A stretch of 64,000 nucleotides of DNA from Candidatus Woesearchaeota archaeon (GCA_018653365.1 JABIAG010000003.1:96001-160000), one strand, 5' to 3'. Shown: positions 13,601 through 64,000, numbered from the stretch's first letter. A program made the numbers and translations. Notes: generated by a model not told the origin, from the sequence alone.

Positions 13601-16600
13601 GTGCGGAAGACACTGCTGCCGTCGCAACAGTTACACAATCATTTACGATCACGGTTACTAACACTAATGATGCTCCTGTTGCTAATTCTGATGCAGAAAC
13701 TACTGATGAAGACACTCCAAAAACTTTTAACATTGTTTCTAATGATGATGACGATGATGGTGACACGCTAACTGTTGTTTCTGTTGTCCAACCCTCAAAA
13801 GGTGTTGTTACAGATGAGGGGGATGGCAATATCACCTTTGATCCAAATAATAAATTTAATTATCTTGCTCCGGGCGATTCAGAAATTATAACGTTTACGT
13901 ACATTGTTAATGATGGCACTGTTGATTCTAACAGTGCAACAGTAACCATTACAATAACTGGAGTTAATGACGCCCCTCTTGCACTCCCTAGATCGTTCCT
14001 TGTTACTGAAGAGGGTAGTTTGTTGTTAAGCAAGGCAGATCTTATTGGGGATGTTGATGTTGATGATATTGAAGCAGATCTTAACTTAATATATGTTGAT
14101 GTTGATTCTATTGTTGATGGGCAAATTGCTGTAGATTATGTTACGCAAGAAATTAGGTACAATCCTAATGGTGATTTTGATGATTTAAAGAGTACTCCGG
14201 TTCTACAAACAGCTACAGAAACTTTCTCGTATACTATTGATGATCCTGATGGTGGATCTTCATCTGAAGATGTAATCATCACAATTAATGGAATCACTGA
14301 CTTCCCAACAGTATCCGATGCAGTAGTTACTGTTGAGCGTGATGATCCTTTAACACTTGTTGCTGATCTTTCAACATTAGTTTCTGAAAATGATGGGGAT
14401 TTAATAACCTGGACTGAAACACATACTTCTGATTTACAAGAGGTTGTCATAAGTGGTACTGATCTTTCTGTTAGTCCGGCTCTTGGTTTTACTGGAACTA
14501 CCTTTATAACGCTTACAGCAAATGATGGAGATGGAACTGACGATGGTGTGTTAACCGTTGAGGTTGTTCCTCCTTTAACTATTCCAACTTTTACTGGAAT
14601 TTCTTTTAGTAATAACCCAATCAAGGGCGGTAATACATTAACAATTGCTGCAATAGGCACCAATGACGCAGATGGAGAACCTGTCAAATTTTATTGTAGT
14701 GAAGACGCATTACCAACAGAATCGAATTCTTTATTTGCAACACATCCGTCATTCTCTTTTCCATATTATAATGTGGAAAACCAATTCAAAGTACATTCAG
14801 ATAATGCAGCACATTTAATTTATTGTAGACTTTATGATGGTATTGATGATAAATATTCGGTAGTTGTTTCCTCAACTTATGATGCAGATTCAACCCCTAT
14901 TGATCTTTCAAGTGTTCTTGTTGATGGAAACCCTTCCCCATTCAAAGATGCATCTAATGATGGTACAACACTAATTCAAATTATTGGAGAAAATAATATG
15001 CAGTGTAAATATCATACTTCGGAGTTTGATTATGCACTTGCCGGAACACTCTGTCCTTTAACTGCTAACGTTGCTGAATGCAGTGTTCCTTCATCTGCCT
15101 GGCAGTCTTACACTGTTCACATTAACTGTTTAGATAGTGTTGGTAACTCTAACGACGGCAATAATTTAGAAGTAACCTGGGATGCTAGTTGGAATACTCT
15201 TCCTGTTGTTTCAAATCTTGCTTTAACTCCATCAAGTCCTAAAAGTTCTAACAATTTAAATGTCAATTACGTATTTACTGATGTTGATGGAGATGCAGAT
15301 AATAGTTTAATTACCTGGACTAAAAATGGTGTCGAATTCCTTGCAGGTGTGGGCATTAAAGCAATATCTTTTACTAGTGTTGCTCGTGGTGAGGAATGGT
15401 CGGTTTCAGTTCTTGCTCGTGATGACGAAACATCTAATAATCTTCTTACTGGCACGTTTCCAACGATTAGAAATTCTGCTCCAATTCCGACTTCGGCAAG
15501 TCTTTCTCCTGCTAATGTATTAGTTGGTGAGGAAGTTGTTTGTAGTGGTACCGCAACTGATGCCGATGGTGATTCAATAGTTGATGAAGAGTTCCAATTT
15601 TTGATTAATGGAGTTACAGCCCAACCGTTCTCAACAGATAATACGTTTACTTGCAGTGCGCCAGATTGTGTAAGAGATAAAAAGTTGAGTTGTCAGTACA
15701 AAGCAGGGGATGGTATTGAATTAAGTTCTTTAGCTGAACATTCTGCAGATTTAATTGTTTCTAATACTCCGCCAACTGTAACTGGTGCCATAATTAGTGC
15801 AAATTCTAATCCTGTAACCAGAGAGTCAAGTATTACATGTACTGGTCAGGGAATGAATGATGTTGATAATGATCCAAACATAGTTCATTATTTCCAATTT
15901 TATTTTGATGGTGTGGGAAGAGGCGGTTTTTTATCTTCTAATTCAAACACGTTAACTGTTAATTGTGCAGATACAACTCATGTGCCTTCTAAACAGGTTA
16001 GGTGTGTTAAGGGAGAACCAGTTCATTGTGAATATTATGCAAATGATCGTCCTGCAACAAGTTCAGTAGTTACTTCTAGTAATGTTTTATCTTTAGTTAA
16101 TGCTATCCCACAAGCTAATGATCTCGCCATTAGTGTGGACGAAGACACATCTGAACTTATCAGTTTAGATACTTATGATGCTGACGGTGATTCATTAACT
16201 GTTTCCGTATCACAACCTGCTAAGGGCGAGGTTACAAATCATAATGATGGTACAGTTACGTTTAATCCCAACAACGAGTTTAATTATCTTGCTCCGGGCG
16301 ATTCAGAAATTATAACTTTTACATACAGTGTTAATGATGGAACTGTTGATTCTAGTATTGGTACAGTAACTCTTACTGTAAGTGGTGTAAACACTCCCCC
16401 AACAGTAACATCTTCTCCAATAACTAGTGCGACTGAAGACACAATTTATTCATATACTTTAATTGCAGGTGATGTGGAAGGGGATGCATTAACGATTTCA
16501 TCAACAACTCTACCTTCTTGGTTAACCTTAACAGATAATGGGGATAATACTGCAACTCTTGTGGGCACGCCTCTGAATGAGGATGTTGGTTCGAATAGTG

Positions 16601-48618: not shown

Positions 48619-50460
48619 ATGGAATTCGTGAGCATATTATTTTTCTTTGTAATGTTTTGGGGATTGGGATTTTCTATAACCTTCTTCATTAAGAAGAAAG
48701 ATGATTTCTTTGAAAAGTTCTTTATGAATCTTGCTTTTGGTATTGCAGTATTCGCTATTCTTGCTGCATTTTTCACTGTAGTTCACATTCCTCTAGCTTG
48801 GTATGTTTTTTTGATATTGTCTTTGATCATTCCTGTTTGGCACTTATTTACAAAAAAGCATTCTTTTAAGTTTAAACTTAAACGTTCTCATCTTTTTTTG
48901 ATTGTTGTTTTGATCTTGTTTATTTTTACTTTTTCTATGTATTTGAAAGGGAGTTTTGCATATCAATTGTATGAGGATGGTGATCCCTGGAAGCACGCAG
49001 GAATTGCTAAGTATATTGCAATACAAAAAACTGCATTAGAACCTTTTGAAGGAGGTAATGTTTTACAGTATGTTGATTCTTACCCTCCAGCATATGATTC
49101 TTTAATGTCTGTTTTGTATCAGGTATCAAATAATTTGGTTTGGACCATGAAATTTTTTAATGCACTTCTGATTTCATTAGGTATTTTCTTTTTTTACTTT
49201 TTTGTTAAGCGTTTCACTGGAAGGGCAGATCGTGCACTTTTTGCAACCTTTATTTTGGCAATGATTCCTGCTTACATGTCTCATTTTATTTGGGCGCATG
49301 CGATTATAACACTATTGCTATTTATTCTGTTTTATTCTATTGAAAGACTTGGAGAAAACAAGTGCTGGTTCTTTCCTACTTTTATTGCGTATGCAGGGGC
49401 AATCTTAATTCAGCCAACTCAAGCCTTCAAATTAACTTTGCTGGTAATAATCTATTTGGTTGTGAAATCTTTATTGATGAAAAAAGTTCAGTGGAATCAA
49501 CTGGGTGCAGTTATTTCAGGGGGAATATTAGCATTTGTTGTTTGGTGGGGTCCAATGATTGTTCGTTACGGCTCACTTAAAAAAATGATTTTGGGGGGCG
49601 GAACATCATTAAGTGTTGCTCGGGGTGTTGAGGGATTCACTCTTAAGTTTCATGGAACTGCAGATAGAATTTATACTTTTGTAGATTTTTTCTTTGCTAA
49701 CAGAGTTAACATGATCAACAATCCAATCGGAATTGGTGTTGTGGTAATGTTATTATTATTCTTTACCATCTTTGTTTTGATTTGGAAGTACAAACATTTG
49801 TTAAAAGAAAAAAATCATTGGGTTATCATTTCAGGAGCGATGTTATTGTTTACTTTCTTAGGTGTTCATGGAGAGAGACTTCCTGTTCAATTATGGGCAT
49901 TCAGGTTTTGGATGTTGTTTGCAGTTTTTCTTTCTATATTTGTTAGTGCAGGCTTTTTTGGTTTGGTTAAGTTATGTAAGAAAGTTAAATTTCCAGTTGT
50001 TTTATTAATTGTTTTAATTGTTTTGGGAGTTTGGTTTACTTCTGGAACCCAAAAGTGGAGTGTTAATACAGGTAGTTGGGAACATACTGCTGGAGAATTT
50101 GCACAGTATGGAAATTTGGATTCTTGGAAGTATGTCGCGGATCTTCCTCAGAATTCTAATGTTTTCTTTCCTTGTCGAAACCATAGGGACTTAGATGTTG
50201 CAATTATGGGTGTTGATCAGAATACTTGTTTGTGGTGTGCAGATGAGAAAGAATTCAAATTAAGGTGGGTGAATGAAACTCCTGAATCTATGGTACGTTT
50301 TGCTCAGTCTAAAGAGTATGATTATCTTTTTTTAGATGGTAATTGTTTTGTTCAATTAGATGAAAATGTTACTTTGTTTGGGAATTATCTTCAAGGAATA
50401 GGTGCAACTGGTGTTTCTTTAGTTCACAAAAGTCAGGGTGGATTCGTTTTTAAGATTTAA
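48619..50460 (+). CDS. Multi-TM membrane protein, probable GT-C fold glycosyltransferase
   Basis: ~13 TMs; DPWKH and YPP in the first large loop. Confidence 0.7.
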   Translation: MEFVSILFFFVMFWGLGFSITFFIKKKDDFFEKFFMNLAFGIAVFAILAAFFTVVHIPLAWYVFLILSLIIPVWHLFTKKHSFKFKLKRSHLFLIVVLILFIFTFSMYLKGSFAYQLYEDGDPWKHAGIAKYIAIQKTALEPFEGGNVLQYVDSYPPAYDSLMSVLYQVSNNLVWTMKFFNALLISLGIFFFYFFVKRFTGRADRALFATFILAMIPAYMSHFIWAHAIITLLLFILFYSIERLGENKCWFFPTFIAYAGAILIQPTQAFKLTLLVIIYLVVKSLLMKKVQWNQLGAVISGGILAFVVWWGPMIVRYGSLKKMILGGGTSLSVARGVEGFTLKFHGTADRIYTFVDFFFANRVNMINNPIGIGVVVMLLLFFTIFVLIWKYKHLLKEKNHWVIISGAMLLFTFLGVHGERLPVQLWAFRFWMLFAVFLSIFVSAGFFGLVKLCKKVKFPVVLLIVLIVLGVWFTSGTQKWSVNTGSWEHTAGEFAQYGNLDSWKYVADLPQNSNVFFPCRNHRDLDVAIMGVDQNTCLWCADEKEFKLRWVNETPESMVRFAQSKEYDYLFLDGNCFVQLDENVTLFGNYLQGIGATGVSLVHKSQGGFVFKI

Positions 50461-51853
50461 GTGACTCTAAAAGTTCTAAGAACCCATTTATGTTCATTTT
50501 TATTCCAGAAATTGAGTTTAGTCTTTTTATTGCTTTCCAAAGGTATCTTAATCTGAAATAGAATTCTTTATTCGCTTTTTTTAATAGTTCTTCTTGTTGT
50601 TTTGGATTTAATCCAGGCAGGGTCATATACCCTAATTGTAAGTGGTATCCCATCCACTTTTCTACTTTTTTCATATACCAATGTTTATTCTTCAATGCAC
50701 CTGTTTCAAGTGCCCAATCGTATAATTCTGTGTTGGGAAAGGGGGTGCAGATGGCAAAGTGCGCAAAATCGGGGTTTACTTTTTTTGCTAGTTCGATTGT
50801 TTTTCTTACGTTCTCAGGGTTGTCGCCAGGGTTACCAATCATAAAAAAGCCAATTGCTCTAATGCCTACCTTATCAATTATTTTAAATGCATCAATTACT
50901 TGTTGAGGGGTTATACCTTTTTTTATTCGGTTAAGTACTTCTTGGCTTCCAGATTCCACCCCTATTCCTAAAACATGACATCCACTTTTTTTCATTTTTC
51001 TTAAGATTGTTTCATCTAATGTATCAACACGTGAGTTACATCTCCAACTTATTTTTAACCCTCTTTTTTGTATGTCGTCACAGATTTCTTCAACCCACTT
51101 CTTGTCTAATACAAACGTACTATCTCTTATTGAGAAATCTTTTACTCCATATTTTTTATAATTATTTTCCATTTCATCAACAATGTTTTTTGGGCTTCTT
51201 ACTCTTGCTTTCCTTCCATGTGTTTTAAATGCATCACAGAACGAGCAACGATAAGGACATCCTCTAGAACAAATCATTGACATGGTTTTGCTATGTTGTG
51301 AGTAGGGCACTCGATACAAGTTTAAATCTATCAGGTCTAAGTCCGGAAAGGGTAACGAATCTAAGTCCTCAATTAATGTTCGCGGAGCATTTTTTATTAT
51401 TTCATCATTTTTTCTCCAGATCAGTCCTTTAACTTCTTCATCCTTTTTCTTTTGTAGCAATTCAAGGAAGGTATATTCTCCCTCACCATGAATTAAGTAG
51501 TCAACATCTTTTGAGAATTGAAATATTTCTTTTCCAACTGAGTTAACATGGCCTCCACCAAGGACAATTTTAGTGTTAGGGATGCGTTCTTTTACTTTTT
51601 TAGAAATTTCAAGAGCTTGTATGATCTGAGGGGTCATTACACTAATACCTAAAAATCTTGGATTCTCTTTTACTATTCTTTCAATTAGTTGTTCAGTTGT
51701 TACACCTTCACTTTCTGCATCGATTATCTTTACACTGAATCCCTCTTTTTTACAAATTGCTGCAATGTATAGTATGCCCAGAGGTGGAAGAGTGAATTTT
51801 GGTTTCTTACCCTCACTCATTGAGGGGTATACTAGAAGTATGTCTAATGCCAT
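50450..51853 (-). CDS. Cobalamin-binding (class B) radical SAM protein
   Basis: PPLGILYIAA, GGGH, SRGCPYRCSFC, GVESGSQ, FFMIGNPG. Confidence 0.93.
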   Translation of the reverse strand: MALDILLVYPSMSEGKKPKFTLPPLGILYIAAICKKEGFSVKIIDAESEGVTTEQLIERIVKENPRFLGISVMTPQIIQALEISKKVKERIPNTKIVLGGGHVNSVGKEIFQFSKDVDYLIHGEGEYTFLELLQKKKDEEVKGLIWRKNDEIIKNAPRTLIEDLDSLPFPDLDLIDLNLYRVPYSQHSKTMSMICSRGCPYRCSFCDAFKTHGRKARVRSPKNIVDEMENNYKKYGVKDFSIRDSTFVLDKKWVEEICDDIQKRGLKISWRCNSRVDTLDETILRKMKKSGCHVLGIGVESGSQEVLNRIKKGITPQQVIDAFKIIDKVGIRAIGFFMIGNPGDNPENVRKTIELAKKVNPDFAHFAICTPFPNTELYDWALETGALKNKHWYMKKVEKWMGYHLQLGYMTLPGLNPKQQEELLKKANKEFYFRLRYLWKAIKRLNSISGIKMNINGFLELLESLKS

Positions 51854-53348: not shown

Positions 53349-55631
53349 ATGTTAAAAATGAAAAAGTCATTCAAAAAGCACATTCCTTTTTTACTTCTTA
53401 TTCTTGTTATTGCATTGGTTTACATGCATCCTTTTTTAAGTTCTAATGCTTCTTATCATCACGGTGATTGGCGGATTTCTCATCAGAATACCCTTGTAAT
53501 AATGGATAAAGCACTTGATGATGGGACTTTACCGTTATGGACTAATTTAGTTGATAGTGGGATGCCGTTCTATGCGATTCCGGATAAACCTTTTCTCTAT
53601 CCTCCTCTTCTTTTATTGCTCTGGTTCTTTGGTGCAGTATTTGCTATGAATATTTTGGTTGTTGCGCATATGGCTATTGCTGGTTTGTTCATGTATTTGT
53701 TGGCATTTCATTTATTTCAGAATAGGTATGTTGCTCTGGGTTCGGCACTCATTTTTATGTTGTCTTCTATTAATTTAATGCACGCCCCTTTTTGGAGATA
53801 TTCCACTGCTTGGATTCCTTTGTTAATGTACTTTGTTATTAGAGCGTTCGAGTCTAAAGATAAACGTATCTTGTTTTCAGTTTTAGCAGGAACAATTTTA
53901 GCATTACAAGCTCTGGCTGGAGGAATTTTCATCTTTTACTATACTCTATTGTTCCTTGTAATCTTGTTTTTAATTTTTAAATGGATGTTGGCGAAGAATA
54001 AAGTGGCATCTCTTTTTTCAGTTTTAATGATTTTCTTTATTCTTTTTGGAGTGTTTTTGGGTTTTTCTCTTGTTCGGCTCGCACCCTCAACAGAGTGGTC
54101 TAACTTAATTAACCGGGCGTCTGGATTGGATGTTGAGCAATCAAAAGGCACCACCCTATCTTCTTCTGATGTTTTTACCACGTTCATTTCAGGTAATGCA
54201 AAGGGGTACTATCGGATTGGTTTTTTGGGAACTATTTTTGTTTTATGTGCATTCTGCTTTTTTAGAAAAAAAGAATTTTTTAAGAATAATAAGAATAAGT
54301 TATTAATATTCTTTATTCTGGTTATGTTTATCAATTTAATCTTTGCTACCGGTCTTTTTTATGAGTTTTTTTGGAAGATTATTCCAGGATTAAACAAACA
54401 GCGGCATCTTATTCGTAGTCTGTTTGTTTACGTTTTCTGTGCTTCTATTGTTGCAGGGTATGGATTATTATATTTGTTTACCGTACTAAAAAAGCGCATT
54501 GGCGCCAAACCCTTCAAAATACTTTTTGTAATTCTTTTAGCATTGTTAGTTGTTGATATGTTGGCATTGTCAAATGTTTCAGAGAGATATCCTGATTTAG
54601 AAGATTACAATATAGTTATTGATAATAATCCTTTAGCACAATATTTGAGCACACAGGAAAAGCCTTTTAGAATTCATGTTTTTGAAGTGAGGGGTATTGA
54701 TTACACAAATATTGAAATTGCGACAATTCCGTTAAATGTGGAGGAGACTAGTCATGCCTTTGGGGGTTTTTGGTTTAATGATTACCTTCATGGTTTTATG
54801 AGTCTTGCTTATCAAGGAGATTATGCAAAAATTATGGGTGTTTTAAATGTCAAGTATATCTCCTCTTCAAAGGAAATTAATATTTCTGGTTTGGATTTGT
54901 ACAAAGTTCTTCCCGAGTATGATGGGGCAATTCCTGATTTTATTGATGGTCCGTATTTATATAATAATACTAAAGCAGTCTCACGCGCATTTTATCCTGA
55001 AAATAAAGTTTTGGTGGTTGGAGATTCTGAAAGTGCAAAGCAAATTGTTAGAGTTATTTTACTTCAAGATTCTTTTAATACGTCTAACACTGTTGTTGTG
55101 AGATCAAATAAAGATCGTGTTTCTGAGTTTAATTATGACTTTTTATCTGGGTTTGATGTAGTTGTTTTGGGAAAAGGATCTGTGGAATCAAATGTACCTT
55201 ACTCTCTTAAAAAATATGTTGAAGAGGGCGGAATCTTACTTCCAAATTTGATTGAGGGCGAAAACTCAATTAGTGCCGAGAATTTGGCAAAGGAATTCAG
55301 TTTATTTTCAGGATCAAACATAAATGTTGATGCTTCATTACATTATTCGCAAAACTCTCTTCTAATCAACAATCCTTCTCCTGGTTGGCTGGTTTTGAGT
55401 GAGAGATACGCATTGTTTCCGGGTTGGAGGGTTCGTGCAGATGGTACCGAACTTGATATTTTCCAGGCAGATGGCATTATTTCAGCAGTTAACGTACCAA
55501 GTAATGTTGCTGAATTAGAATTTGTTTATAGTCCTAAGTTTTTTGTTTCAACGTTTATTTTATTTATTCTAACAACGCTTTTTGTTGTTGTTTATCTTCT
55601 CTTATTCTGGAGAAAGTCATCAAAACAATAG
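53349..55631 (+). CDS. YfhO-like GT-C membrane glycosyltransferase
   Basis: LPLWTNLVDSGMPF, LYPP, many TMs, C-terminal LVLSE...PGW. Confidence 0.85.
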   Translation: MLKMKKSFKKHIPFLLLILVIALVYMHPFLSSNASYHHGDWRISHQNTLVIMDKALDDGTLPLWTNLVDSGMPFYAIPDKPFLYPPLLLLLWFFGAVFAMNILVVAHMAIAGLFMYLLAFHLFQNRYVALGSALIFMLSSINLMHAPFWRYSTAWIPLLMYFVIRAFESKDKRILFSVLAGTILALQALAGGIFIFYYTLLFLVILFLIFKWMLAKNKVASLFSVLMIFFILFGVFLGFSLVRLAPSTEWSNLINRASGLDVEQSKGTTLSSSDVFTTFISGNAKGYYRIGFLGTIFVLCAFCFFRKKEFFKNNKNKLLIFFILVMFINLIFATGLFYEFFWKIIPGLNKQRHLIRSLFVYVFCASIVAGYGLLYLFTVLKKRIGAKPFKILFVILLALLVVDMLALSNVSERYPDLEDYNIVIDNNPLAQYLSTQEKPFRIHVFEVRGIDYTNIEIATIPLNVEETSHAFGGFWFNDYLHGFMSLAYQGDYAKIMGVLNVKYISSSKEINISGLDLYKVLPEYDGAIPDFIDGPYLYNNTKAVSRAFYPENKVLVVGDSESAKQIVRVILLQDSFNTSNTVVVRSNKDRVSEFNYDFLSGFDVVVLGKGSVESNVPYSLKKYVEEGGILLPNLIEGENSISAENLAKEFSLFSGSNINVDASLHYSQNSLLINNPSPGWLVLSERYALFPGWRVRADGTELDIFQADGIISAVNVPSNVAELEFVYSPKFFVSTFILFILTTLFVVVYLLLFWRKSSKQ

Positions 55632-58272: not shown

Positions 58273-58521
58273 ATGAAAATGAAGTATGAGTGGGTTTTAG
58301 TTGTTGTTTTGATTATCATCACATTATTTGTTGTTCTGAGTATAAACCCTAAATCTGATTGTCATAAAGAATGTGTTGTTAAGGGATACGATACTGGGCG
58401 TTGTTTAGACATGCCAAAAGAATTAACATGTGAAAGTAAGTTTAATTATTCGTCATTATCGACTGAGTTTTGTTCACAAAAGAATTACCAAGGTTTTTAT
58501 TATGCTTGTTGTTGTCAATGA
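58273..58521 (+). CDS. Small membrane-anchored Cys-rich protein
   Basis: TM then DCHKECVVKGYDTGRC..C..C..CCC; ATGA overlap with the next gene. Confidence 0.7.
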   Translation: MKMKYEWVLVVVLIIITLFVVLSINPKSDCHKECVVKGYDTGRCLDMPKELTCESKFNYSSLSTEFCSQKNYQGFYYACCCQ

Positions 58522-59885
58522 TTAATCAATTAAAACGTATGGATGCTGGAGTATTAACTTTAATAATACTTTTTATAATTCTTACGCCCATTTTTCTCAC
58601 ACCCATAATTCATGGTTCAGATGGTCCAGGGTATTATTCATATGTTCGTTCAATGGTTATTGATGGTGATGTGGATCTAGAGAATGAATTAACTCATTAT
58701 AAAGAAACGTATGATTATATCAAGATTAATTTTCGTGAGGGTACGGGAAGGGTAAAATCTCAGTATAACGTGGGGGCAGCCATATTCTGGTCTCCGTTTT
58801 TCTTATTGGCTCATGGTTTATCTCATGTGTTTAGTCTTCCCTTGGATGGTTATTCCCAAATGTATGTTACTTTAAGTATGTTGGGTTCTGCAATTTATGC
58901 CCTGATTGGCCTAATTTTGCTTTATAAGATTGCTAAAGATTTAGTTGGTAAGAAGATTGCACTAATCTCTACTCTGACTGTTTGGCTTGCTTCTCATCTG
59001 TTTCATTATATGTACCTTCAACCCTATATGTCTCACGCTATTTCATTTTTTGCGGTTTCTTTATTTATTTGGTACTGGTATTTTTATATGCGTCCAAAAA
59101 ACTCAGCAAAGCTTTCTTGGAAAAAGTGGGTTTTGTTGGGGGTTGTTGCTGCTCCATTATTACTTGTTAGAATTCAGAACATCCTTTATATTTCAATTCC
59201 TTTAATTTATTATATTTTTGAGCTCATTGACCTGTCAGATTGGAAGGGAAGGATTAAAAGCCTTTTAGGACCTTTACTTGCAGCAATAACTTTTATTATC
59301 TTAATTTTGCCTCAACTTATTGTTTGGAAGATTAATGATGGGCACATTCTCGGTTCTTATATTGGGAATTATGCTAGTGCAGAAGGTTCAAGTTTTAGTA
59401 TCTTGAGAATATTATTTGTTCTTTTTTCAAACAAGCATGGTTTGTTTAATTGGACTCCTGTTTTCTTACTTGGTGCTATTGGTTTATACTTTTTATATAA
59501 GCGAAGCAGGCAGGACAAAAAACTTGTTTTGACCTTGACTGTGGCAATATTTCTCCAATTACTTGTTGCAGCTAGCTGGATGAGATGGTGGGGAGGCTAT
59601 TCTTATGGTAACCGATATGTTTTGGGTACTGCTGTTTTGTTAGGGATTGGTTTTGCATATTTCATGAAAAAGGCATATTTATACAAAAAGTTCCTGTTAT
59701 GGCTAATTCCTGCAATCTTGATTGGTTGGAATTTTAATCTTATGTTTCAGTATGGTTCTAGAATGATTTGTCCGGATTGTTCTGCTAGTCCATTAAGAAT
59801 TTTAAGGAATTTAGTTACTGAACTTCCGAAGAAGGCAATAACAATTTTGAAAAAGTTTCTTTTTGATCGTGGTTCTTTGTTATAA
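58518..59885 (+). CDS. GT-C fold (PMT/GT39-like) membrane glycosyltransferase
   Basis: DGPGYYSYVRSMVIDGDVD, HGLFNWTP, WWGGYSYGNRY. Confidence 0.8.
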   Translation: MINQLKRMDAGVLTLIILFIILTPIFLTPIIHGSDGPGYYSYVRSMVIDGDVDLENELTHYKETYDYIKINFREGTGRVKSQYNVGAAIFWSPFFLLAHGLSHVFSLPLDGYSQMYVTLSMLGSAIYALIGLILLYKIAKDLVGKKIALISTLTVWLASHLFHYMYLQPYMSHAISFFAVSLFIWYWYFYMRPKNSAKLSWKKWVLLGVVAAPLLLVRIQNILYISIPLIYYIFELIDLSDWKGRIKSLLGPLLAAITFIILILPQLIVWKINDGHILGSYIGNYASAEGSSFSILRILFVLFSNKHGLFNWTPVFLLGAIGLYFLYKRSRQDKKLVLTLTVAIFLQLLVAASWMRWWGGYSYGNRYVLGTAVLLGIGFAYFMKKAYLYKKFLLWLIPAILIGWNFNLMFQYGSRMICPDCSASPLRILRNLVTELPKKAITILKKFLFDRGSLL

Positions 59886-60575
59886 TTATACAACTTCTTC
59901 TGCTTTTTTTAGGTCTTCTGGGAAGTCTATGTCGATGAACTTTTTGTCTCCTATATTAAATGAGGTGACCTCTTCACCATCTAAGATTATTTGATTTATT
60001 ATATTTATTAATGTGACATTTAAATTTGTTTTGAGCGCTTTTTCTATTTGTTTTATCATATTTTTCGCTCCGCTTTTTGAGAGCTTCATGATTCCTATAA
60101 ATTCACTGCTTTGATCGGGGGAATTTTCTTTACTTATTCCTGTTATTCTTCCGTTGTTTTCGATAACTTTTTCTGCTTCCTCTCTGAGTTCTTGTTTTTT
60201 TACTGCTAAGCAAGCATGTCCTGTACATGTTGGAAGTTCTTTTAGAATCGCTGAGTCAAATATTATGTCTGCATACATTACTATGCATTCCTCTTTTAGT
60301 TCTTCTTTTGCTGTTAAAAGTGTTGCAGCCATACCTGATACTTCAAAGAAAGGGTTGTAAACTGTTTTTATTTTCAATTTATTACATTTAGTTTCAAGTG
60401 CCTCTGATTTATATCCTGACACAACTATGATTTCATTTGTTCCTGCAGCTTTAAGCGCATCTATTTGGTGTTCGAGGATTGTTTTGTTTTTAACCATTAA
60501 CAAGCTTTGGGGGACATCTTTAACAAGAGGTAAAAGTCTTGGCGAATTCCCTGCTGCGATGATTATGGCCTTCAT
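59886..60575 (-). CDS. LicC/PntC-like phosphocholine or phosphonate cytidylyltransferase (NTP transferase fold)
   Basis: MKAIIIAAGNSPRL..P.SLL, YNP.F, YADIIF, EFIGI, IDIDFPEDL. Confidence 0.85.
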   Translation of the reverse strand: MKAIIIAAGNSPRLLPLVKDVPQSLLMVKNKTILEHQIDALKAAGTNEIIVVSGYKSEALETKCNKLKIKTVYNPFFEVSGMAATLLTAKEELKEECIVMYADIIFDSAILKELPTCTGHACLAVKKQELREEAEKVIENNGRITGISKENSPDQSSEFIGIMKLSKSGAKNMIKQIEKALKTNLNVTLINIINQIILDGEEVTSFNIGDKKFIDIDFPEDLKKAEEVV

Positions 60576-60614
60576 TTTTTAATTTTTATTTTTCTAAATA
60601 TTTAATCTTTTTGA

Positions 60615-61415
60615 TTATTCGATTGTTTTTATTCCAACAACGCGTTTTCTTATGGTTGCACTTATTCTGTCGATTAAGATTACCATTCCCACCATGATCA
60701 TTAGAATTGTTAAGACCTCTTGGTTTTTGAATAACCGCATGCTTGTTAAAAGTTCCATTCCAATTCCTCCCGCTCCAACGAGTCCAAGCACTGTGGCTGC
60801 TCTGAAGTTGTTTTCTAGGTAGTAAAGTATGTAGTTTATGAATGCAGGTTTTACTTGAGGAATTATTCCTTTTATAACCACTTGTATTTTGTTTGCTCCT
60901 GTTGAGAGTATGGCTTTTATTATTTTTGGGTCAACAGTTTCTATTGATTCTGAAAAGTATCTTCCTAGTGCCCCTGCAACATGGGCTGAGAGTGCAAGAA
61001 CTCCGGGAAATGGCCCTAAGCCGACCATGGATACAAATATTAGACCCCAAACAATCTCATTTATTCCTCTACAAATGTCAAAAAAGGTTCTTATGGTGTG
61101 ATAAACAAATTTGTTTGGCATTATATTGCGTGCAGCTAAAAATGAAAGGGGTAATGCGATTATGGCACCGATTGTTGTTCCTAAAATTGCCATTTGAAGT
61201 GTTTCCAGCCCTTTTAGTAAAAACGTGCCTATGTTGCTAAAGTCTGGGGGAAACATTCGTCTAATAAAATCCGCCATGTGAGGGATTCCCTGAGCAAAGC
61301 TTGTTGGGCTGGTTCCGGTTCCGCTTATTGCCCAATAATAGACTAGAACTATTAGCAATCCAATTATTAGTTTCTGATATTTTTTCTTTATTATTGTGTT
61401 GGGTATTTTTTTCAT
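60615..61415 (-). CDS. phnE: Phosphonate/phosphite ABC permease
   Basis: ETLQMAILGT, VGLGPFPG, E.NFRAATVLGLVGAGGIG. Confidence 0.93.
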   Translation of the reverse strand: MKKIPNTIIKKKYQKLIIGLLIVLVYYWAISGTGTSPTSFAQGIPHMADFIRRMFPPDFSNIGTFLLKGLETLQMAILGTTIGAIIALPLSFLAARNIMPNKFVYHTIRTFFDICRGINEIVWGLIFVSMVGLGPFPGVLALSAHVAGALGRYFSESIETVDPKIIKAILSTGANKIQVVIKGIIPQVKPAFINYILYYLENNFRAATVLGLVGAGGIGMELLTSMRLFKNQEVLTILMIMVGMVILIDRISATIRKRVVGIKTIE

Positions 61416-61418
61416 TTC

Positions 61419-62192
61419 TTAAAACCCGGTTTTTCCATATAAAAACCACTCTTTTGTTTTTCCGTAAATGTCTACTATGTCTTTTTCTGTTAGTTCTTCT
61501 GGAAGTCCATCAAAGACTATGTTTCCCTCTTTCATTCCAATAATTCTTGTTCCATACCTTTTTGCAAATTCAAGAAAGTGCAGGCTTGTTATGAGTGTTA
61601 TTCCTTTTTCTTTACATATTGTTGTGAGTAGGTCCATGACTTCTTTCATAAGTTTCGGGTCTAGGCTAGATACTGGTTCATCTGCCAGAATCACTGCAGG
61701 GTTTTGTGATAATGCTCTTGCTATTGCAACTCTTTGTTTTTGTCCTCCGCTCAGATTAGATACTCGTTCATTTTCGTATTCTCCTAACCCAACAACTTTT
61801 AGGTTTTCTTTTGCAATCGCAATGTCTTCTTTAGAAAACTTTCCAAATAATGTTTGTACCGTGCTTAAATATTTAAGTCTTCCATTTAGAACATTTTTTA
61901 GTACACTCTCGCTTTCAACAAGGTTGTACTCTTGGAAGATCATTCCTATGCTTCCTCTAATTTTTGTTGCATGGTGTATGTCACAATTTAGAATTTCTTT
62001 TTCTTCAATGTATATCTTTCCTGAGGTTGGGTCAATAAGTCTGTTAATACATTTTAGAAGGGTCGATTTTCCTGATCCGCTTGAACCTATAACTACTAAA
62101 CTCTCCCCTTTTTTTATTTGGAGGTTTATGTTGTTAACGGCTTCTTCTTCTCTACCTTCGTATTTATGGGTCAAGCCCTCTATTCGTATCAT
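61419..62192 (-). CDS. phnC: Phosphonate/phosphite ABC ATPase
   Basis: GSSGSGKST, NVLNGRL, LSGGQKQR, ADEPVSSLDP. Confidence 0.93.
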   Translation of the reverse strand: MIRIEGLTHKYEGREEEAVNNINLQIKKGESLVVIGSSGSGKSTLLKCINRLIDPTSGKIYIEEKEILNCDIHHATKIRGSIGMIFQEYNLVESESVLKNVLNGRLKYLSTVQTLFGKFSKEDIAIAKENLKVVGLGEYENERVSNLSGGQKQRVAIARALSQNPAVILADEPVSSLDPKLMKEVMDLLTTICKEKGITLITSLHFLEFAKRYGTRIIGMKEGNIVFDGLPEELTEKDIVDIYGKTKEWFLYGKTGF

Positions 62193-62224
62193 TTTCTTTC
62201 AAAAAATAAAAAAATAAATTATAT

Positions 62225-63106
62225 TTACTTATTTGCTGCTTCTGCACTGCTAACATCCATGTCAAGTAATCTTGCAGTTTCTCTGATTACATCATAATCG
62301 CTGTCGGATACTTTTTGGTAGCTTGTAATTCCACCCCATCCGTCTACTTTATGGATTGTTTGTTCATCCATTTCTAGTAAGGCAGTTTGTATCCTGGTTT
62401 TTAGTTCTGCCGGTAAGCTCCCCCTTACTACTATTGGTGAACCGGGAATTGGTTCTGATTCGTGGATGATTATGTTTATTTCTGGGTCTATTTCTCCAGC
62501 TTCTATCATTCTTTGGTGAACATTATCTCCTGCTGCCCCCGCGTCTACTTTGCCATTTGCTATTGCGTATTGTACTGCGTTGTGTGTTCCTGCAAAGAAG
62601 CTGGTGCTGAAGTCTTTATCTGGGTCAATTCCGTTTTCGATTAGCATTTTTCTTGGTATTAAATTTCCTGATGTTGATGCAGGGTCTACAAAAGCGAAAC
62701 TTTTACCTTTAAGATCTTCTAATGTTTTAATTCCGCTTTCAGCGTTAACAATTATCACGGATTTATAGGTTGCACTTCCAGTACTTGCTTTTACTCCGTT
62801 AACTATTGCTTCTGCATCTGCAACATTGGCTGCGATTACATATGAGAATGGTCCAAACCATGCCATGTCAATATGTTCTGCTCTCATTGCTTCTATTGCG
62901 GCGGTGTAGTCTGAGGTTACTTGTATTTCAACGGGCATATCTAGTTTTTGTGAAAGGTATTCTTGTATTGGTTCATAATTTCTTAGCATTTCATCTGCAT
63001 CATCTGCAGGGATCAATCCCATTTTTAGAACGTTTTCTTCTTCTTTTTGACATCCCACTAATGCGATTAGTAAGATCAGACAAATAACTAATATTTCTTT
63101 TTTCAT
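62225..63106 (-). CDS. phnD: Phosphonate/phosphite ABC substrate-binding lipoprotein (PhnD/PtxB family)
   Basis: Lipobox LVGC, DYTAAIEAMR, FGPFSY, DPASTSG. Confidence 0.92.
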   Translation of the reverse strand: MKKEILVICLILLIALVGCQKEEENVLKMGLIPADDADEMLRNYEPIQEYLSQKLDMPVEIQVTSDYTAAIEAMRAEHIDMAWFGPFSYVIAANVADAEAIVNGVKASTGSATYKSVIIVNAESGIKTLEDLKGKSFAFVDPASTSGNLIPRKMLIENGIDPDKDFSTSFFAGTHNAVQYAIANGKVDAGAAGDNVHQRMIEAGEIDPEINIIIHESEPIPGSPIVVRGSLPAELKTRIQTALLEMDEQTIHKVDGWGGITSYQKVSDSDYDVIRETARLLDMDVSSAEAANK

Positions 63107-63130
63107 TTTTCCCCACCTCAGTCTGTTGTT

Positions 63131-63532
63131 TTATTGTTTTTTTATTCTATTTTTTATAGCAGTACTTGATTGATTTTTATAGTATGGAAGCATGATGATT
63201 CGTCCATTTGGAAGGGCCTTTTTTAATTTCTTAAGATAAGGATTCCCTATGTGGCTTGTACTTTCTATTGTGATGTCTGGTTGTATGGCTTTTAAGTTCT
63301 CAATTGGAGAATATTCGTTTTGGGGAACTGCACAATCAACACATTTGAGTGCACTTATAAGCTTCACGCGTTCTCTAAATGACAATGCAGGTCTTGCTTT
63401 TTTCTCCATTACGGCTTCATCTGTTAGCACTCCAACAATTAACTTATCTCCAAGCGCTTTTGCATTCTCCAAGAACAGTAAATGTCCTTCGTGCAATATA
63501 TCTCCACATACGTAAGCATATACTATCTTCAT
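63131..63532 (-). CDS. HIGH-family cytidylyltransferase (TagD / Fom1-CyTase-like)
   Basis: GDILHEGH, LIVGVLTDEA, ER, SST. Confidence 0.9.
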   Translation of the reverse strand: MKIVYAYVCGDILHEGHLLFLENAKALGDKLIVGVLTDEAVMEKKARPALSFRERVKLISALKCVDCAVPQNEYSPIENLKAIQPDITIESTSHIGNPYLKKLKKALPNGRIIMLPYYKNQSSTAIKNRIKKQ

Positions 63533-63636
63533 TTTTTTCCCTCTCCCACCTCATAGACTTAAGTTGAGACACTATTTATAAAGCTTACACCAAAACATTT
63601 ATATATGATTGATGATTACTCCTTATTGGTGATAAC

Positions 63637-64000
63637 CTGGATTATGCTACTAAACGCCAAGCAAGCAAAATATTAAGCACGCTTGTGGGTAATAATGATA
63701 CGAATTTTAAAACTCCTTCAAGATTTATAGAACATTCTAAGGAGGTTGCAGGTAATGTTGAAGCGGTTTATGATAGATTAGGATTGCCCGCTCAAGAGGG
63801 TTGGTTAGCTGGTCTATTTCACGATATTGGAAGATGTTTTGCTAAGGATCCCAAAGGACACACATTTCATGAAATTGGGAGTGGTAGAATTATTGAAAGA
63901 GATGGTGTTGAGTTAAAATTGTCTCCTGACCAAGCAATTTGTGATAGACTTGCACAATCCGTTAGATCTCATTTTTTAGTTGCAGAACAGTTTAGGATGC
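63637..64000 (+). CDS. HD-domain phosphohydrolase (partial, runs off the window)
   Basis: Open frame: IEHSKEV...AGLFHDIGR...HEIGS...SH; start probably CTG 63637 after GGTGAT, or GTG 63685. Confidence 0.8.
   Translation, partial: MDYATKRQASKILSTLVGNNDTNFKTPSRFIEHSKEVAGNVEAVYDRLGLPAQEGWLAGLFHDIGRCFAKDPKGHTFHEIGSGRIIERDGVELKLSPDQAICDRLAQSVRSHFLVAEQFRM

What the first reader, a model, noticed from the sequence alone, without database searches (positions are those of the whole stretch)
59886..63532. Cytidylyltransferase-phnDCE-cytidylyltransferase cluster: candidate phosphonate salvage for surface decoration
Seen: five co-oriented genes, a HIGH-type CyTase, phnD, phnC, phnE and a LicC/PntC-type CyTase, directly beside GT-C and GT2 genes. 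No C-P lyase, PhnX/W, PtxD or PEP mutase is in the window. Established: PntC enzymes and the Fom1 CyTase domain make CMP-phosphonates, normally alongside PEP mutase; PhnDCE usually feeds catabolism; the class B radical SAM Fom3 methylates a CMP-phosphonate. Inference: this archaeon imports ready-made phosphonates (or phosphocholine-type head groups), activates them with CTP and attaches them to glycans or lipids, using a nutrient transporter for envelope building or host mimicry. A role for the radical SAM at 50450-51853 is speculative.
Basis: partly seen in the sequence, partly recalled or inferred. Interest (0 to 1): 0.72.

Follow-up and report, generated by a model that had tools for sequence, protein, structure and literature searches.

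The report
Importer-fed phosph(on)ate surface-decoration cassette
A tiny archaeon carries a mobile five-gene cassette, shared with other ultra-small archaea and bacteria, that joins a phosphonate-type uptake pump to two nucleotide-activating enzymes inside a sugar-coat gene island, so it probably scavenges a ready-made phosphorus compound to decorate its surface rather than to feed on it.

Summary
The five co-oriented genes are real: a HIGH-type cytidylyltransferase, PhnD, PhnC, PhnE and a LicC-like NTP_transf_3, convergent with a GT-C gene inside a large glycan island.

PhnD belongs to a tight clade (66-86% identity) found in DPANN archaea, CPR bacteria and Dehalococcoidia. All 16 loci of that clade carry PhnC and PhnE. 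Thirteen have a nucleotidyltransferase orthologue just after PhnE and 10 have a HIGH CyTase upstream. None of 66 more distant PhnD loci has a nucleotidyltransferase within 4 kb.

The binding pocket keeps every phosphorus-head ligand. It lacks the phosphite cap Tyr/Asp, the E. coli AEP pair Glu/Asp and the GpxB Arg/Thr pair. It has an invariant Asn195/Ser223 signature instead.

The genome lacks PEP mutase, PhnJ, phosphonatase, PstS, PiT, LicD and TagF, but three CDP-alcohol phosphotransferases lie nearby. Most relatives also lack Pi transporters, so the pump is not a general nutritional need. The closest fused relatives of both nucleotidyltransferases are joined to PEP mutase.

The import-activate-attach reading is supported, but the cargo (phosphonate or phospho-alcohol) is unresolved. 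This scan has found the same cassette in at least 12 other genomes. I found no paper describing it.

The parts
63131..63532 (-). Stand-alone HIGH-type (HxGH = HEGH) nucleotidyl/cytidylyltransferase, 133 aa; first gene of the cassette
   Evidence: PF01467 at 1.7e-13. Scores are below the cut-offs for RfaE-II (84.9 against 181.5) and TagD (56.6 against 165.4). PDB matches: HldC 5x9q, ECT 3elb and the Fom1 CyTase domain 5x3d, all near 1e-14 to 1e-16. The closest fused relatives are DUF2061 fusions (47-67% identity), a PEP-mutase fusion P0136 (54%) and a methyltransferase fusion (54%); RfaE-type fusions reach only 37-40%.
62225..63106 (-). PhnD-type substrate-binding lipoprotein (lipobox LVGC at residues 16-19) of a distinct specificity clade
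   Evidence: TIGR03431 273.8 bits, above the cut-off of 261.1. Best PDB matches are PtxB and Prochlorococcus PhnD1 at about 1e-50; E. coli PhnD scores 1e-23 and a chain I take (unverified) to be GpxB, 9lf9, 4e-13. The head ligands Y67, Y114, S144-T145-S146 and H175 are kept. The cap Tyr is replaced by S223, its Asp partner by A34, and E. coli E177/D205 by N195/S223. The signature is invariant in 120 cluster representatives.
61419..62192 (-). PhnC ABC ATPase (Walker A GSSGSGKST, signature LSGGQKQR, Walker B ILADEP intact)
   Evidence: TIGR02315 317.9 bits, above the cut-off of 266.1. The motifs were read in the sequence.
60615..61415 (-). PhnE permease
   Evidence: TIGR01097 300.8 bits, above the cut-off of 216.7. 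It is 62-82% identical to the permeases of the other cassette loci.
59886..60575 (-). LicC/IPCT-like NTP_transf_3 nucleotidyltransferase, 229 aa; the constant downstream member of the cassette
   Evidence: PF12804 at 3.8e-15. Best PDB match is LicC at 3.6e-14. Orthologues (35-54% identity) lie roughly 10-100 nt after PhnE in 13 loci. The nearest longer relative is an NTase-PEP mutase fusion, P0149 (36% identity, 98% coverage). The C-terminal DIDFPEDL motif is conserved, and the canonical P-K reads P-Q or P-V in all 13 orthologues.
63573..63582 (-). TATA-box-like element TTTATAAATA about 45 nt upstream of the CyTase ATG, followed by a GAGGTG ribosome-binding sequence (63552-63547)
   Evidence: Read directly from the sequence. 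The promoter function is an inference.
62201..62217 (-). T-rich run between the phnD stop and the phnC start; possible partial archaeal terminator giving excess binding protein
   Evidence: Read directly from the sequence. This is an inference only.
63685..63999 (+). Start of a divergent HD/HDIG-domain gene (runs to genome C2:160287; 200 aa from a GTG start); a recurrent accessory of the cassette
   Evidence: PF01966 at 5.5e-6. Homologues lie inside or beside the cassette in L011 (between PhnE and the NTase), L014 and L008. No PDB sequence match was found.
58470..59885 (+). GT-C-type membrane glycosyltransferase, convergent with and abutting the cassette
   Evidence: PF13231 PMT_2 at 1e-5 and NF047440 at 1.4e-13.

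Best explanation
The five genes form a horizontally mobile 'import-activate' cassette.

Proposed mechanism:
1. The lipoprotein PhnD captures a small organophosphorus compound outside the cell, and PhnC/PhnE import it.
2. One or both flanking nucleotidyltransferases condense it with CTP (or another NTP) to an NMP/NDP-activated head group.
3. Membrane transferases encoded in the same glycan island move it onto a lipid or glycan that ends up on the cell surface. Candidates are three CDP-alcohol phosphotransferase paralogues 8-14 kb away, the GT-C next door and a flippase.

The favoured cargo is a small phosphonate with a polar tail (2-aminoethyl-, 2-hydroxyethyl- or methylphosphonate-like). That would make this an importer-fed version of the phosphonyl-tailoring (Pnt) pathway in an organism that cannot make C-P bonds.

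Shown: gene identities, conserved linkage, pocket signature and genome-wide absences. Inferred: cargo identity, nucleotide used, acceptor and surface location.
For: Linkage:
- PhnD homologues split into a tight clade of 14 genome loci at 66-80% identity; the next best is 42%.
- Of 16 tight-clade loci, 16 have PhnC and PhnE, 13 have the downstream NTP_transf_3 and 10 have a HIGH CyTase upstream. Some have an extra upstream LicC-like NTase.
- None of 66 distant PhnD loci has an NTase within 4 kb.
- The same order is seen on contigs with gene calls.

Phyletic unit:
- None of 60 same-order relatives has the tight-clade PhnD, or an orthologue of either NTase; the best hits are 35% and 40% identical.

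Context:
- CDP-alcohol phosphotransferases occur in 5 loci, a flippase in 4 and B12 radical SAM genes in 7.
- A SAM methyltransferase sits between phnD and phnC in 2 loci.
- A sulfatase-family enzyme is adjacent in 2 loci and fused to the NTase in L010.
- The own genome has three CDP-alcohol phosphotransferase genes in the same island.

Not nutrition:
- The phosphite cap Tyr208/Asp22 is replaced by Ser223/Ala34.
- 27 of 31 genomes searched (own included) lack PstS and PiT, and none of these 31 has a PhnD match.
- The own genome has no C-P lyase, phosphonatase or linked PtxD.

Lean towards a phosphonate:
- The CyTase clade includes a PEP-mutase fusion at 54% identity; RfaE-type fusions reach 37-40%.
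- The best longer relative of the downstream NTase is an NTase-PEP mutase fusion.
- A cassette-bearing Woesearchaeon (G066) has a Fom1-like CyTase-Ppm, Ppd, AEP-transaminase-like gene and the same sulfatase family in one cluster.
- The closest published architecture, the Burkholderiales_CDP-OH core, is Ppm-Ppd-AEPT plus two PntC and a CDP-alcohol transferase (PMC8942020).
Against: - No ligand, product or acceptor has been measured.
- The pocket tail residues Asn195/Ser223 are neutral hydrogen-bonders, closer in kind to the hydroxyl-binding Arg/Thr of the glycerol-phosphate binder GpxB than to the amine-binding Glu/Asp of E. coli PhnD. A phospho-alcohol therefore fits equally well.
- Neither NTase reaches any curated family cut-off.
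- The downstream NTase scores as well against archaeal sugar-1-phosphate NTases (TIGR03992 1.2e-27) as against LicC, and has Gln in place of the canonical P-K lysine.
- The PEP-mutase-fused relatives are single proteins from short contigs.
- No LicD or TagF transferase is present in this genome.
- Possible internal TATA-like and T-run signals mean the five genes may not be one transcript.
Confidence: 0.42

Rival explanations
1. The logic is the same (import, nucleotide activation, attachment), but the cargo is a phosphate ester released from other cells' lipids. Candidates are glycerol-1/3-phosphate (giving CDP-glycerol), phosphoethanolamine or phosphocholine. This would be an importer-fed Kennedy/Lic/teichoic-type head-group pathway.
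For: - A PhnT-family binding protein (GpxB) is now known to bind G1P and G3P, with loss of the cap Tyr and neutral hydroxyl-binding residues at the same two positions (PMC12718374). Here those positions are Asn195/Ser223.
- The genome has no G1P dehydrogenase-type (PF13685) or GpsA-type (PF01210) gene, so glycerol phosphate would have to be imported.
- A TagF-like CDP-glycerol glycerophosphotransferase directly follows the cassette on one CPR contig.
- A LicD gene follows a 57%-identical CyTase on a phage-like contig.
- Human ECT is among the top CyTase PDB hits.
- Methyltransferases fused to or beside the CyTases could convert an ethanolamine-type head to a choline-type head.
Against: - The GpxB signature (S-N-S, Arg223, Thr247) is not present, and the chain I take to be GpxB (9lf9) is a far weaker match (4e-13) than PtxB and PhnD1 (about 1e-50).
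- The TagD model scores 56.6 against a cut-off of 165.4.
- No TagF or LicD is present in this genome.
- The nearest fused relatives of both NTases carry PEP mutase rather than kinases or glycerol-phosphate enzymes.
Confidence: 0.3
2. PhnDCE is simply this organism's phosphorus-uptake system (phosphate, phosphite or mixed). It sits among glycan genes by the accident of island insertion, and the nucleotidyltransferases serve unrelated sugar activation.
For: - The genome has no PstS or PiT, so this is its only recognisable P-oxyanion transporter.
- The closest solved relatives bind phosphite or phosphate, and marine PhnD1 has been argued to be a constitutive Pi transporter (PMC10284923, listed).
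- The downstream NTase resembles archaeal sugar-1-phosphate NTases.
Against: - The NTases are linked to this PhnD clade in 13-16 of 16 loci across Archaea and Bacteria and in 0 of 66 other PhnD loci.
- The cap Tyr and Asp needed for phosphite selectivity are lost in 120 of 120 clade members.
- 27 of 31 genomes searched (own included) have no PstS or PiT, and none of them a PhnD match, so such a pump is dispensable in this order.
- No PtxD is linked.
Confidence: 0.12
3. The imported compound is activated only transiently, as HEP-CMP is in fosfomycin synthesis. It is then remodelled (class B radical SAM or SAM methylation, HD hydrolase) into a soluble metabolite or cofactor rather than a surface decoration.
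For: - B12 radical SAM genes lie within 8 kb in 7 of 17 loci.
- HD-domain genes lie in or beside 4 loci, once between PhnE and the NTase.
- A CyTase-NUDIX fusion exists at 51% identity.
- The Fom1/Fom3/FomD precedent is cited in PMC6697681.
Against: - The radical SAM proteins give only generic class B matches.
- The HD protein matches no solved PhnZ or other chain by sequence.
- The invariant context is glycan and lipid transferases and flippases, not small-molecule pathways.
Confidence: 0.06

Closest known systems
Phosphonyl-tailoring (Pnt) pathway, especially the 'Burkholderiales_CDP-OH' / Group 1 phosphonolipid core (Ppm, Ppd, AEPT, two PntC cytidylyltransferases, CDP-alcohol phosphatidyltransferase; Rice et al. 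2019 PMC6697681; Li and Horsman 2022 PMC8942020)
   Same: It has two nucleotidyltransferases plus CDP-alcohol phosphotransferases in an envelope-glycan or lipid locus. One NTase is LicC/PntC-like and one is the Fom1 HIGH type. The nearest fused relatives of both are joined to PEP mutase.
   Different: There is no Ppm, Ppd or AEP transaminase anywhere in the genome. A PhnDCE importer stands where the C-P-forming genes would be. Neither cited paper mentions PhnD or a salvage route, and their transporter mentions are none (PMC6697681) or a single note that PhnCDE is absent (PMC8942020).
Lic pathway for phosphocholine decoration (LicB permease, LicA kinase, LicC cytidylyltransferase, LicD transferase) of Streptococcus pneumoniae and Haemophilus
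   Same: A head-group precursor is scavenged from outside, CTP-activated by a LicC-fold enzyme and transferred to a surface glycan.
   Different: The importer is an ABC system of the PhnT family that would take up an already phosphorylated or phosphonylated compound, so no kinase is needed. No LicD was found in this genome. LicA and LicB were not searched for.
PhnCDE / PhnT transporter family (TC 3.A.1.9): E. coli PhnD (2-AEP), PtxB and HtxB (phosphite, hypophosphite), marine PhnD1, GpxB (G1P/G3P)
   Same: All three subunits pass the curated equivalog cut-offs. The phosphorus-head ligands (two Tyr, S-T-S, His) are conserved.
   Different: The tail-recognition positions form a signature of their own: Ala34, Asp36, Asp194-Asn195 and Ser223. 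It is invariant in 120 clade members. The operon partners are nucleotidyltransferases rather than C-P lyase, phosphonatase or PtxD.
Fom1 of Streptomyces wedmorensis (CyTase domain fused to PEP mutase; PDB 5X3D)
   Same: HIGH-type CyTase of about 130 aa, with a 2.1e-14 match. A natural CyTase-PEP mutase fusion is 54% identical to the window's CyTase.
   Different: Here the CyTase stands alone and precedes a binding protein. The Woesearchaeal Fom1-like fusions (G066, G032, G038) are only 32-37% identical to it.

Membership tests
PhnCDE phosphonate-type ABC importer (PhnT, TC 3.A.1.9) | The three subunits match the curated PhnD, PhnC and PhnE equivalog models above their cut-offs | tested here: met
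   TIGR03431 273.8 against 261.1, TIGR02315 317.9 against 266.1, TIGR01097 300.8 against 216.7.
PhnCDE phosphonate-type ABC importer (PhnT, TC 3.A.1.9) | Conserved phosphorus-head ligands (Tyr, Tyr, S-T-S, His) | tested here: met
   Y67, Y114, S144-T145-S146 and H175 align with E. coli Y47, Y93, S127-S129 and H157 and with PtxB. They are 120/120 conserved in the clade.
PhnCDE phosphonate-type ABC importer (PhnT, TC 3.A.1.9) | Genomic association with a phosphonate or phosphite catabolic route (C-P lyase, PhnWX, PtxD) | tested here: not met
   No PhnJ and no phosphonatase. The only 2-hydroxyacid dehydrogenase is generic and lies on another contig.
PtxB-type phosphite-binding protein | Capping Tyr (Te_PtxB Y208) with its Asp partner (D22), which gives the P-H...pi contact and steric exclusion | tested here: not met
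   Y208 aligns with Ser223 and D22 with Ala34. In contrast, the Bacillus-type loci in the same alignment keep D...Y.
E. coli-type 2-AEP-binding PhnD | Glu177/Asp205 pair that binds the amino group | tested here: not met
   These positions align with Asn195/Ser223. An Asp (194) sits one residue earlier, so a shifted acid cannot be excluded.
GpxB glycerol-phosphate binding protein | S-N-S head motif with Arg223/Thr247 tail ligands | tested here: not met
   The motif here is S-T-S with Asn195/Ser223. PDB 9lf9, which I take (unverified) to be GpxB, matches only at 4.3e-13.
PntC / LicC-type cytidylyltransferase | NTP_transf_3 fold with N-terminal G-x-G-x-R...P-K and C-terminal (E/D)ID..ED motifs | tested here: inconclusive
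   PF12804 is matched and LicC is the best PDB hit. The C-terminal DIDFPEDL motif is conserved, but the motif reads AAGNSPR...P-Q, with Lys replaced in all 13 orthologues.
PntC / LicC-type cytidylyltransferase | Substrate pocket residues (Tde-PntC E104/E196; LicC D105/D192 and aromatic box) | not tested
   The HMMER alignment to LicC covers only residues 1-144. No structure-based alignment was made.
Pnt (phosphonyl tailoring) gene cluster | PEP mutase in the cluster or genome | tested here: not met
   PF13714 gives no match in the own genome. Only 1 of 14 other cassette genomes has one above the cut-off.
Pnt (phosphonyl tailoring) gene cluster | A transferase for the activated head group (CDP-alcohol phosphotransferase or LicD) | tested here: met
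   Three PF01066 genes lie in the same island, at L001:7660-8418, 12563-13294 and 13291-14067; the first (L001:7660-8418) scores below the Pfam cut-off (20.6 against 22). No LicD was found.
TagD glycerol-3-phosphate cytidylyltransferase / teichoic acid pathway | Match to TIGR01518 above the cut-off, and a TagF-type polymerase | tested here: not met
   56.6 bits against 165.4. PF04464 is absent from the genome.
RfaE domain II / HldC heptose-1-phosphate adenylyltransferase | Match to TIGR02199 above the cut-off, and a partner heptose kinase | tested here: not met
   84.9 bits against 181.5. PfkB-fused relatives are only 37-40% identical and fall in a separate clade.

The most novel reading that the evidence does not exclude
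Ultra-small symbiotic archaea and bacteria (DPANN, CPR, some Dehalococcoidia) share, by inter-domain transfer, a cassette built around a previously unrecognised PhnD specificity clade. The cassette lets cells without PEP mutase display C-P compounds (or other scavenged phospho-head groups) on their envelope. If so, PEP mutase surveys undercount phosphonate-bearing organisms, and 'phosphonate transporter' genes in such genomes report surface remodelling rather than phosphorus nutrition.
Probability: 0.4. Interest if true: 0.75.

Novelty: new variant of a known kind. Interest (0 to 1): 0.6.

Why it matters
PhnDCE genes are routinely counted as markers of phosphonate or phosphite use as a phosphorus source, and PEP mutase is used as the marker of phosphonate-bearing cells. 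A conserved, mobile cassette that wires a PhnD clade to head-group activation in glycan islands would change both readings. In organisms with tiny genomes that depend on other cells, the pump would feed envelope decoration, and cells unable to make C-P bonds could still carry them.

The finding also defines a binding-protein clade with an invariant, untested pocket signature (Asn195/Ser223). It points to a nucleotidyltransferase lineage with a relocated lysine. Both can be tested directly with recombinant protein.

Tried and rejected
- **PhnZ-like reading of the HD gene:** no sequence match to any PDB chain. Only a weak HD/HDIG match was found. Left open.
- **Phosphite assimilation:** the cap Tyr/Asp is absent. 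The only 2-hydroxyacid dehydrogenase is generic and unlinked. Rejected as the main role.
- **Teichoic-acid reading:** the TagD model scores below its cut-off and there is no TagF. Rejected for this genome.
- **ADP-heptose reading of the CyTase:** PfkB-fused relatives are distant and form a separate clade. Rejected.
- **Fom3-like role for the class B radical SAM genes:** NCBIfam gives BchE, HpnJ and PhpK-type matches far below cut-off for all three proteins tested. Not decidable.
- **Sulfatase-family partner:** present in other cassette loci and in the G066 Ppm cluster, but tblastn found no homologue in this genome.
- **Pi-starvation argument:** the lack of PstS and PiT looked like support for a nutritional role until 27 of the 31 genomes searched (own included) turned out to lack them too.
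- **Literature:** searches for PntC/phosphonate/cytidylyltransferase, DPANN/phosphonate/phnD and Patescibacteria/ABC transporter found no description of an importer-fed version. A groundwater virome paper only lists phnD and phnE as viral auxiliary genes.
- **Not run:** structure prediction, because the tools return no coordinates from which a pocket could be measured. Complex prediction was also not used.

Full report
**Observation.** The window is G000:C2:96001-160000 of a 1.09 Mb, three-contig genome that is 95% complete. The genome carries a full-length match to the archaeal SSU rRNA model (1418 bits), and its closest protein relatives are named Woesearchaeota or Nanoarchaeota.

Five minus-strand ORFs occupy exactly 59886-63532:
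- a 133-aa PF01467 HIGH-type nucleotidyltransferase with an HEGH motif;
- PhnD (TIGR03431, 273.8 bits against a cut-off of 261.1);
- PhnC (TIGR02315, 317.9 against 266.1);
- PhnE (TIGR01097, 300.8 against 216.7);
- a 229-aa PF12804 NTP_transf_3.

PhnD starts with a lipobox (LVGC). The gaps between genes are 24, 32, 3 and 39 nt. A TATA-like TTTATAAATA lies about 45 nt upstream of the first ATG. GAGGTG ribosome-binding sequences precede the first two genes, and a T-run follows phnD.

The last gene abuts a convergent GT-C gene, and a GT2 gene follows it. The wider region is one very large glycan island. It holds GT2, GT4 and GT-C genes, methyltransferases, two class B radical SAM genes, a FemAB-like gene, a deacetylase and a flippase. 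Beyond the window end lie a PAPS-synthesis block and three CDP-alcohol phosphotransferase paralogues.

**Is the arrangement more than chance?** Close PhnD homologues are abundant. More than 120 clusters at 68-83% identity come from Woesearchaeota, Nanoarchaeota, unclassified archaeal MAGs and Patescibacteria.

In one-genome-per-species contigs the homologues split sharply. Fourteen loci are 66-80% identical, from Woesearchaeota, Aenigmatarchaeota, Nanobdellati, Nealsonbacteria, Patescibacteria and Dehalococcoidia. The next best locus is 42% identical.

I ran tblastn with the window's proteins and clustered the neighbouring ORFs:
- All 16 tight-clade loci have PhnC and PhnE.
- Thirteen have an orthologue of the downstream NTase (35-54% identity) roughly 10-100 nt after PhnE.
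- Ten have a HIGH CyTase upstream.
- Several have CyTase plus a second, canonical LicC-like NTase upstream.
- None of 66 loci with more distant PhnD proteins has either NTase type within 4 kb.

Contigs with precomputed gene calls show the same order.

Other neighbours recur:
- B12 radical SAM genes in 7 loci;
- CDP-alcohol phosphotransferases in 5;
- flippases in 4;
- SAM methyltransferases, twice inserted between phnD and phnC;
- sulfatase-family proteins, twice adjacent and once fused to the NTase;
- HD-domain proteins, divergent here and inside the operon in L011;
- a TagF-like gene, once.

Among 60 same-order relatives, including two of the same genus, none has the tight-clade PhnD. The best hits to the two NTases are only 35% and 40% identical. 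The five genes are therefore present or absent as a unit. Their 62-86% identity between archaeal and bacterial carriers indicates transfer between the two domains.

**The binding protein.** The best solved relatives are the phosphite binders PtxB and Prochlorococcus PhnD1 (about 1e-50). E. coli PhnD (1e-23) and a chain I take (unverified) to be GpxB (9lf9, 4e-13) are far weaker matches.

The residue-level alignments were read against the published structures (PMC5700983; PMC12718374). They show:
- All phosphorus-head ligands are conserved: Y67, Y114, S144-T145-S146 and H175.
- The capping Tyr208 that gives phosphite selectivity and blocks larger groups is Ser223. Its Asp22 partner is Ala34.
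- The E. coli amine-binding pair Glu177/Asp205 and the GpxB hydroxyl-binding pair Arg223/Thr247 both correspond to Asn195/Ser223.

Ala34, Asp36 and Ser223 are invariant, and Asp194 and Asn195 nearly so, in 120 of the closest cluster representatives. The pocket is therefore built for a phosph(on)ate with a substituent larger than H and a polar tail. It is none of the four characterised types.

**The nucleotidyltransferases.** Neither reaches a curated family cut-off.

The HIGH-type enzyme matches HldC, human ECT and the Fom1 CyTase domain about equally. A search for longer relatives was more informative:
- fusions to DUF2061: 47-67% identity;
- a PEP mutase fusion (P0136): 54%, with the mutase half best matching TIGR02320;
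- methyltransferase fusions: 49-54%;
- a NUDIX fusion: 51%;
- PfkB (RfaE-type) fusions: only 37-40%.

A maximum-likelihood tree of the CyTase domains puts the window's enzyme in a supported clade (95/97). That clade also holds the short CyTases of five other cassette loci and the DUF2061, methyltransferase, NUDIX and P0136 mutase fusions. A second, longer cassette CyTase type is sister to Fom1-like fusions. The RfaE-type proteins lie apart.

The downstream enzyme's best solved match is LicC. Its best longer relative is an NTase-PEP mutase fusion (36% identity, 98% coverage).

An alignment of 13 downstream orthologues and 8 upstream LicC-like paralogues shows the LicC/IPCT-type C-terminal motif in both groups. 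The downstream lineage always reads P-Q or P-V where the canonical P-K lysine stands. All 13 keep the lysine a few residues earlier (PLTK; PLVK in the window's own protein). The critical Arg of the glycine-rich loop is kept.

**Genome-wide context.** The genome has no PEP mutase, PhnJ or phosphonatase. tblastn with the G066 proteins found no phosphonopyruvate decarboxylase or sulfatase-family homologue. There is no LicD or TagF.

The single 2-hydroxyacid dehydrogenase is generic and lies on another contig.

There is also no PstS or PiT, which at first favours a nutritional role. However, 27 of the 31 genomes searched (own included) lack both, and none of them has a PhnD match. Such a pump is evidently dispensable in this order.

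No G1P-dehydrogenase-type or GpsA-type gene was found. This keeps glycerol phosphate in play as a cargo.

PEP mutase occurs in 4 of 60 relatives, each in an ORF of 367-440 aa; in the two I could check (G032, G038) the same ORF also carries the CyTase match, as in Fom1. It also occurs in 1 of 14 other cassette genomes. There the cluster holds CyTase-Ppm, Ppd, a class V aminotransferase and a sulfatase-family gene of the kind seen beside the cassettes.

**Interpretation.** The linkage, phyletic pattern, pocket and context together support an import-activate-attach module. PhnDCE brings in a small organophosphorus compound. The flanking NTases convert it to an NMP/NDP-linked donor. Island transferases, most plausibly the CDP-alcohol phosphotransferases, place it on a lipid or glycan.

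This is the logic of the Pnt and Lic pathways, with the biosynthetic or kinase steps replaced by a PhnT importer. The closest published architecture is the Burkholderiales_CDP-OH core: Ppm, Ppd, AEPT, two PntC and a CDP-alcohol transferase (PMC8942020).

I lean towards a phosphonate cargo because both NTases have mutase-fused nearest relatives and the transporter family points the same way. The neutral Asn/Ser tail ligands and the missing glycerol-phosphate synthesis make a phospho-alcohol nearly as likely. A purely nutritional role is unlikely.

**Prior knowledge.** I found no paper describing an importer-fed version. This scan has met the same cassette before in at least 12 other genomes, with follow-up reports reaching the same general reading. 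Those notes were treated as leads.

**Verdict.** The cargo, the nucleotide and the acceptor are not established. It is a new variant of a known kind (Pnt/Lic-type head-group decoration fed by a PhnT importer), carried by a mobile inter-domain cassette with a distinct PhnD specificity clade.

Noticed in passing
window 63685-63999 (+), continuing to genome C2:160287 (L001:685-1287): A divergent HD/HDIG-domain gene shares the cassette's promoter region. Homologues sit between PhnE and the NTase in L011 and just upstream of the CyTase in L014 and L008. It has an H...HD...H...H...D pattern and no PDB sequence match, so its role (hydrolase or PhnZ-like oxygenase) is open.
   Followed up: partly
window 59886-60575 (-), residues 9-23; orthologues in L006-L022: The downstream NTase lineage replaces the canonical P-K lysine of nucleotidyltransferases with Gln (Val in Dehalococcoidia) in all 13 orthologues. 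All 13 keep the lysine a few residues earlier (PLTK; PLVK in the window's own protein). The upstream LicC-like paralogues keep P-K.
   Followed up: partly
L010:6093-7982 (+); L006:5346-6515; L007:5104-6231; L094:8993-10231: Soluble sulfatase/alkaline-phosphatase-superfamily proteins recur beside the cassette. One is fused to the NTase (629 aa). The same family sits next to a Fom1-like CyTase-Ppm/Ppd/aminotransferase cluster in a Woesearchaeon. They may be the head-group transferases. None is present in this genome.
   Followed up: partly
L097:4834-7768 (+): On another metagenome contig a CyTase, a CyTase-methyltransferase fusion (54% identical to the window's CyTase) and an MFS transporter are co-oriented and overlapping. 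This looks like an analogous import-activate module with a different importer.
   Followed up: no
L096:7001-11028 (+): A DUF2061-CyTase fusion (57% identical) is followed by an epimerase, LicD and a double GT2 on a phage-like contig that also carries terminase, RecT and ParB genes. Viruses of these hosts may carry head-group decoration genes.
   Followed up: no
whole genome G000 and 30 same-order relatives: No PstS-type or PiT-type phosphate transporter was found in this genome, and 27 of the 31 genomes searched (own included) have neither. How these archaea obtain phosphorus is unexplained.
   Followed up: partly
whole genome G000: No G1P-dehydrogenase-type (PF13685) or GpsA-type (PF01210) gene was detected. 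The genome therefore shows no recognisable dehydrogenase route to glycerol phosphate.
   Followed up: no
L001:7660-8418 (-), 12563-13294 (+), 13291-14067 (-) (genome C2:166660-173067): Three divergent CDP-alcohol phosphotransferase paralogues (28-29% identical to each other) are the only ones found in the genome with these queries; the first scores below the Pfam cut-off. They bracket the PAPS-synthesis block. They are distant homologues of the transferases next to the cassette in L013-L016 and L019.
   Followed up: partly
window 48619-50460 (+) and 53349-55631 (+); L001:1284-2066 (-): Large ORFs of 613, 760 and 260 aa in the island have no Pfam or NCBIfam match. The 613-aa protein has a 30%-identical homologue near the cassette in L007.
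   Followed up: no
G001:C2:44050-45512 (same-genus relative; L106): There are two adjacent NTP_transf_3 genes, one inside a 624-aa ORF (a fusion of unknown partner). That genome has neither the PhnDCE cassette nor PEP mutase.
   Followed up: no
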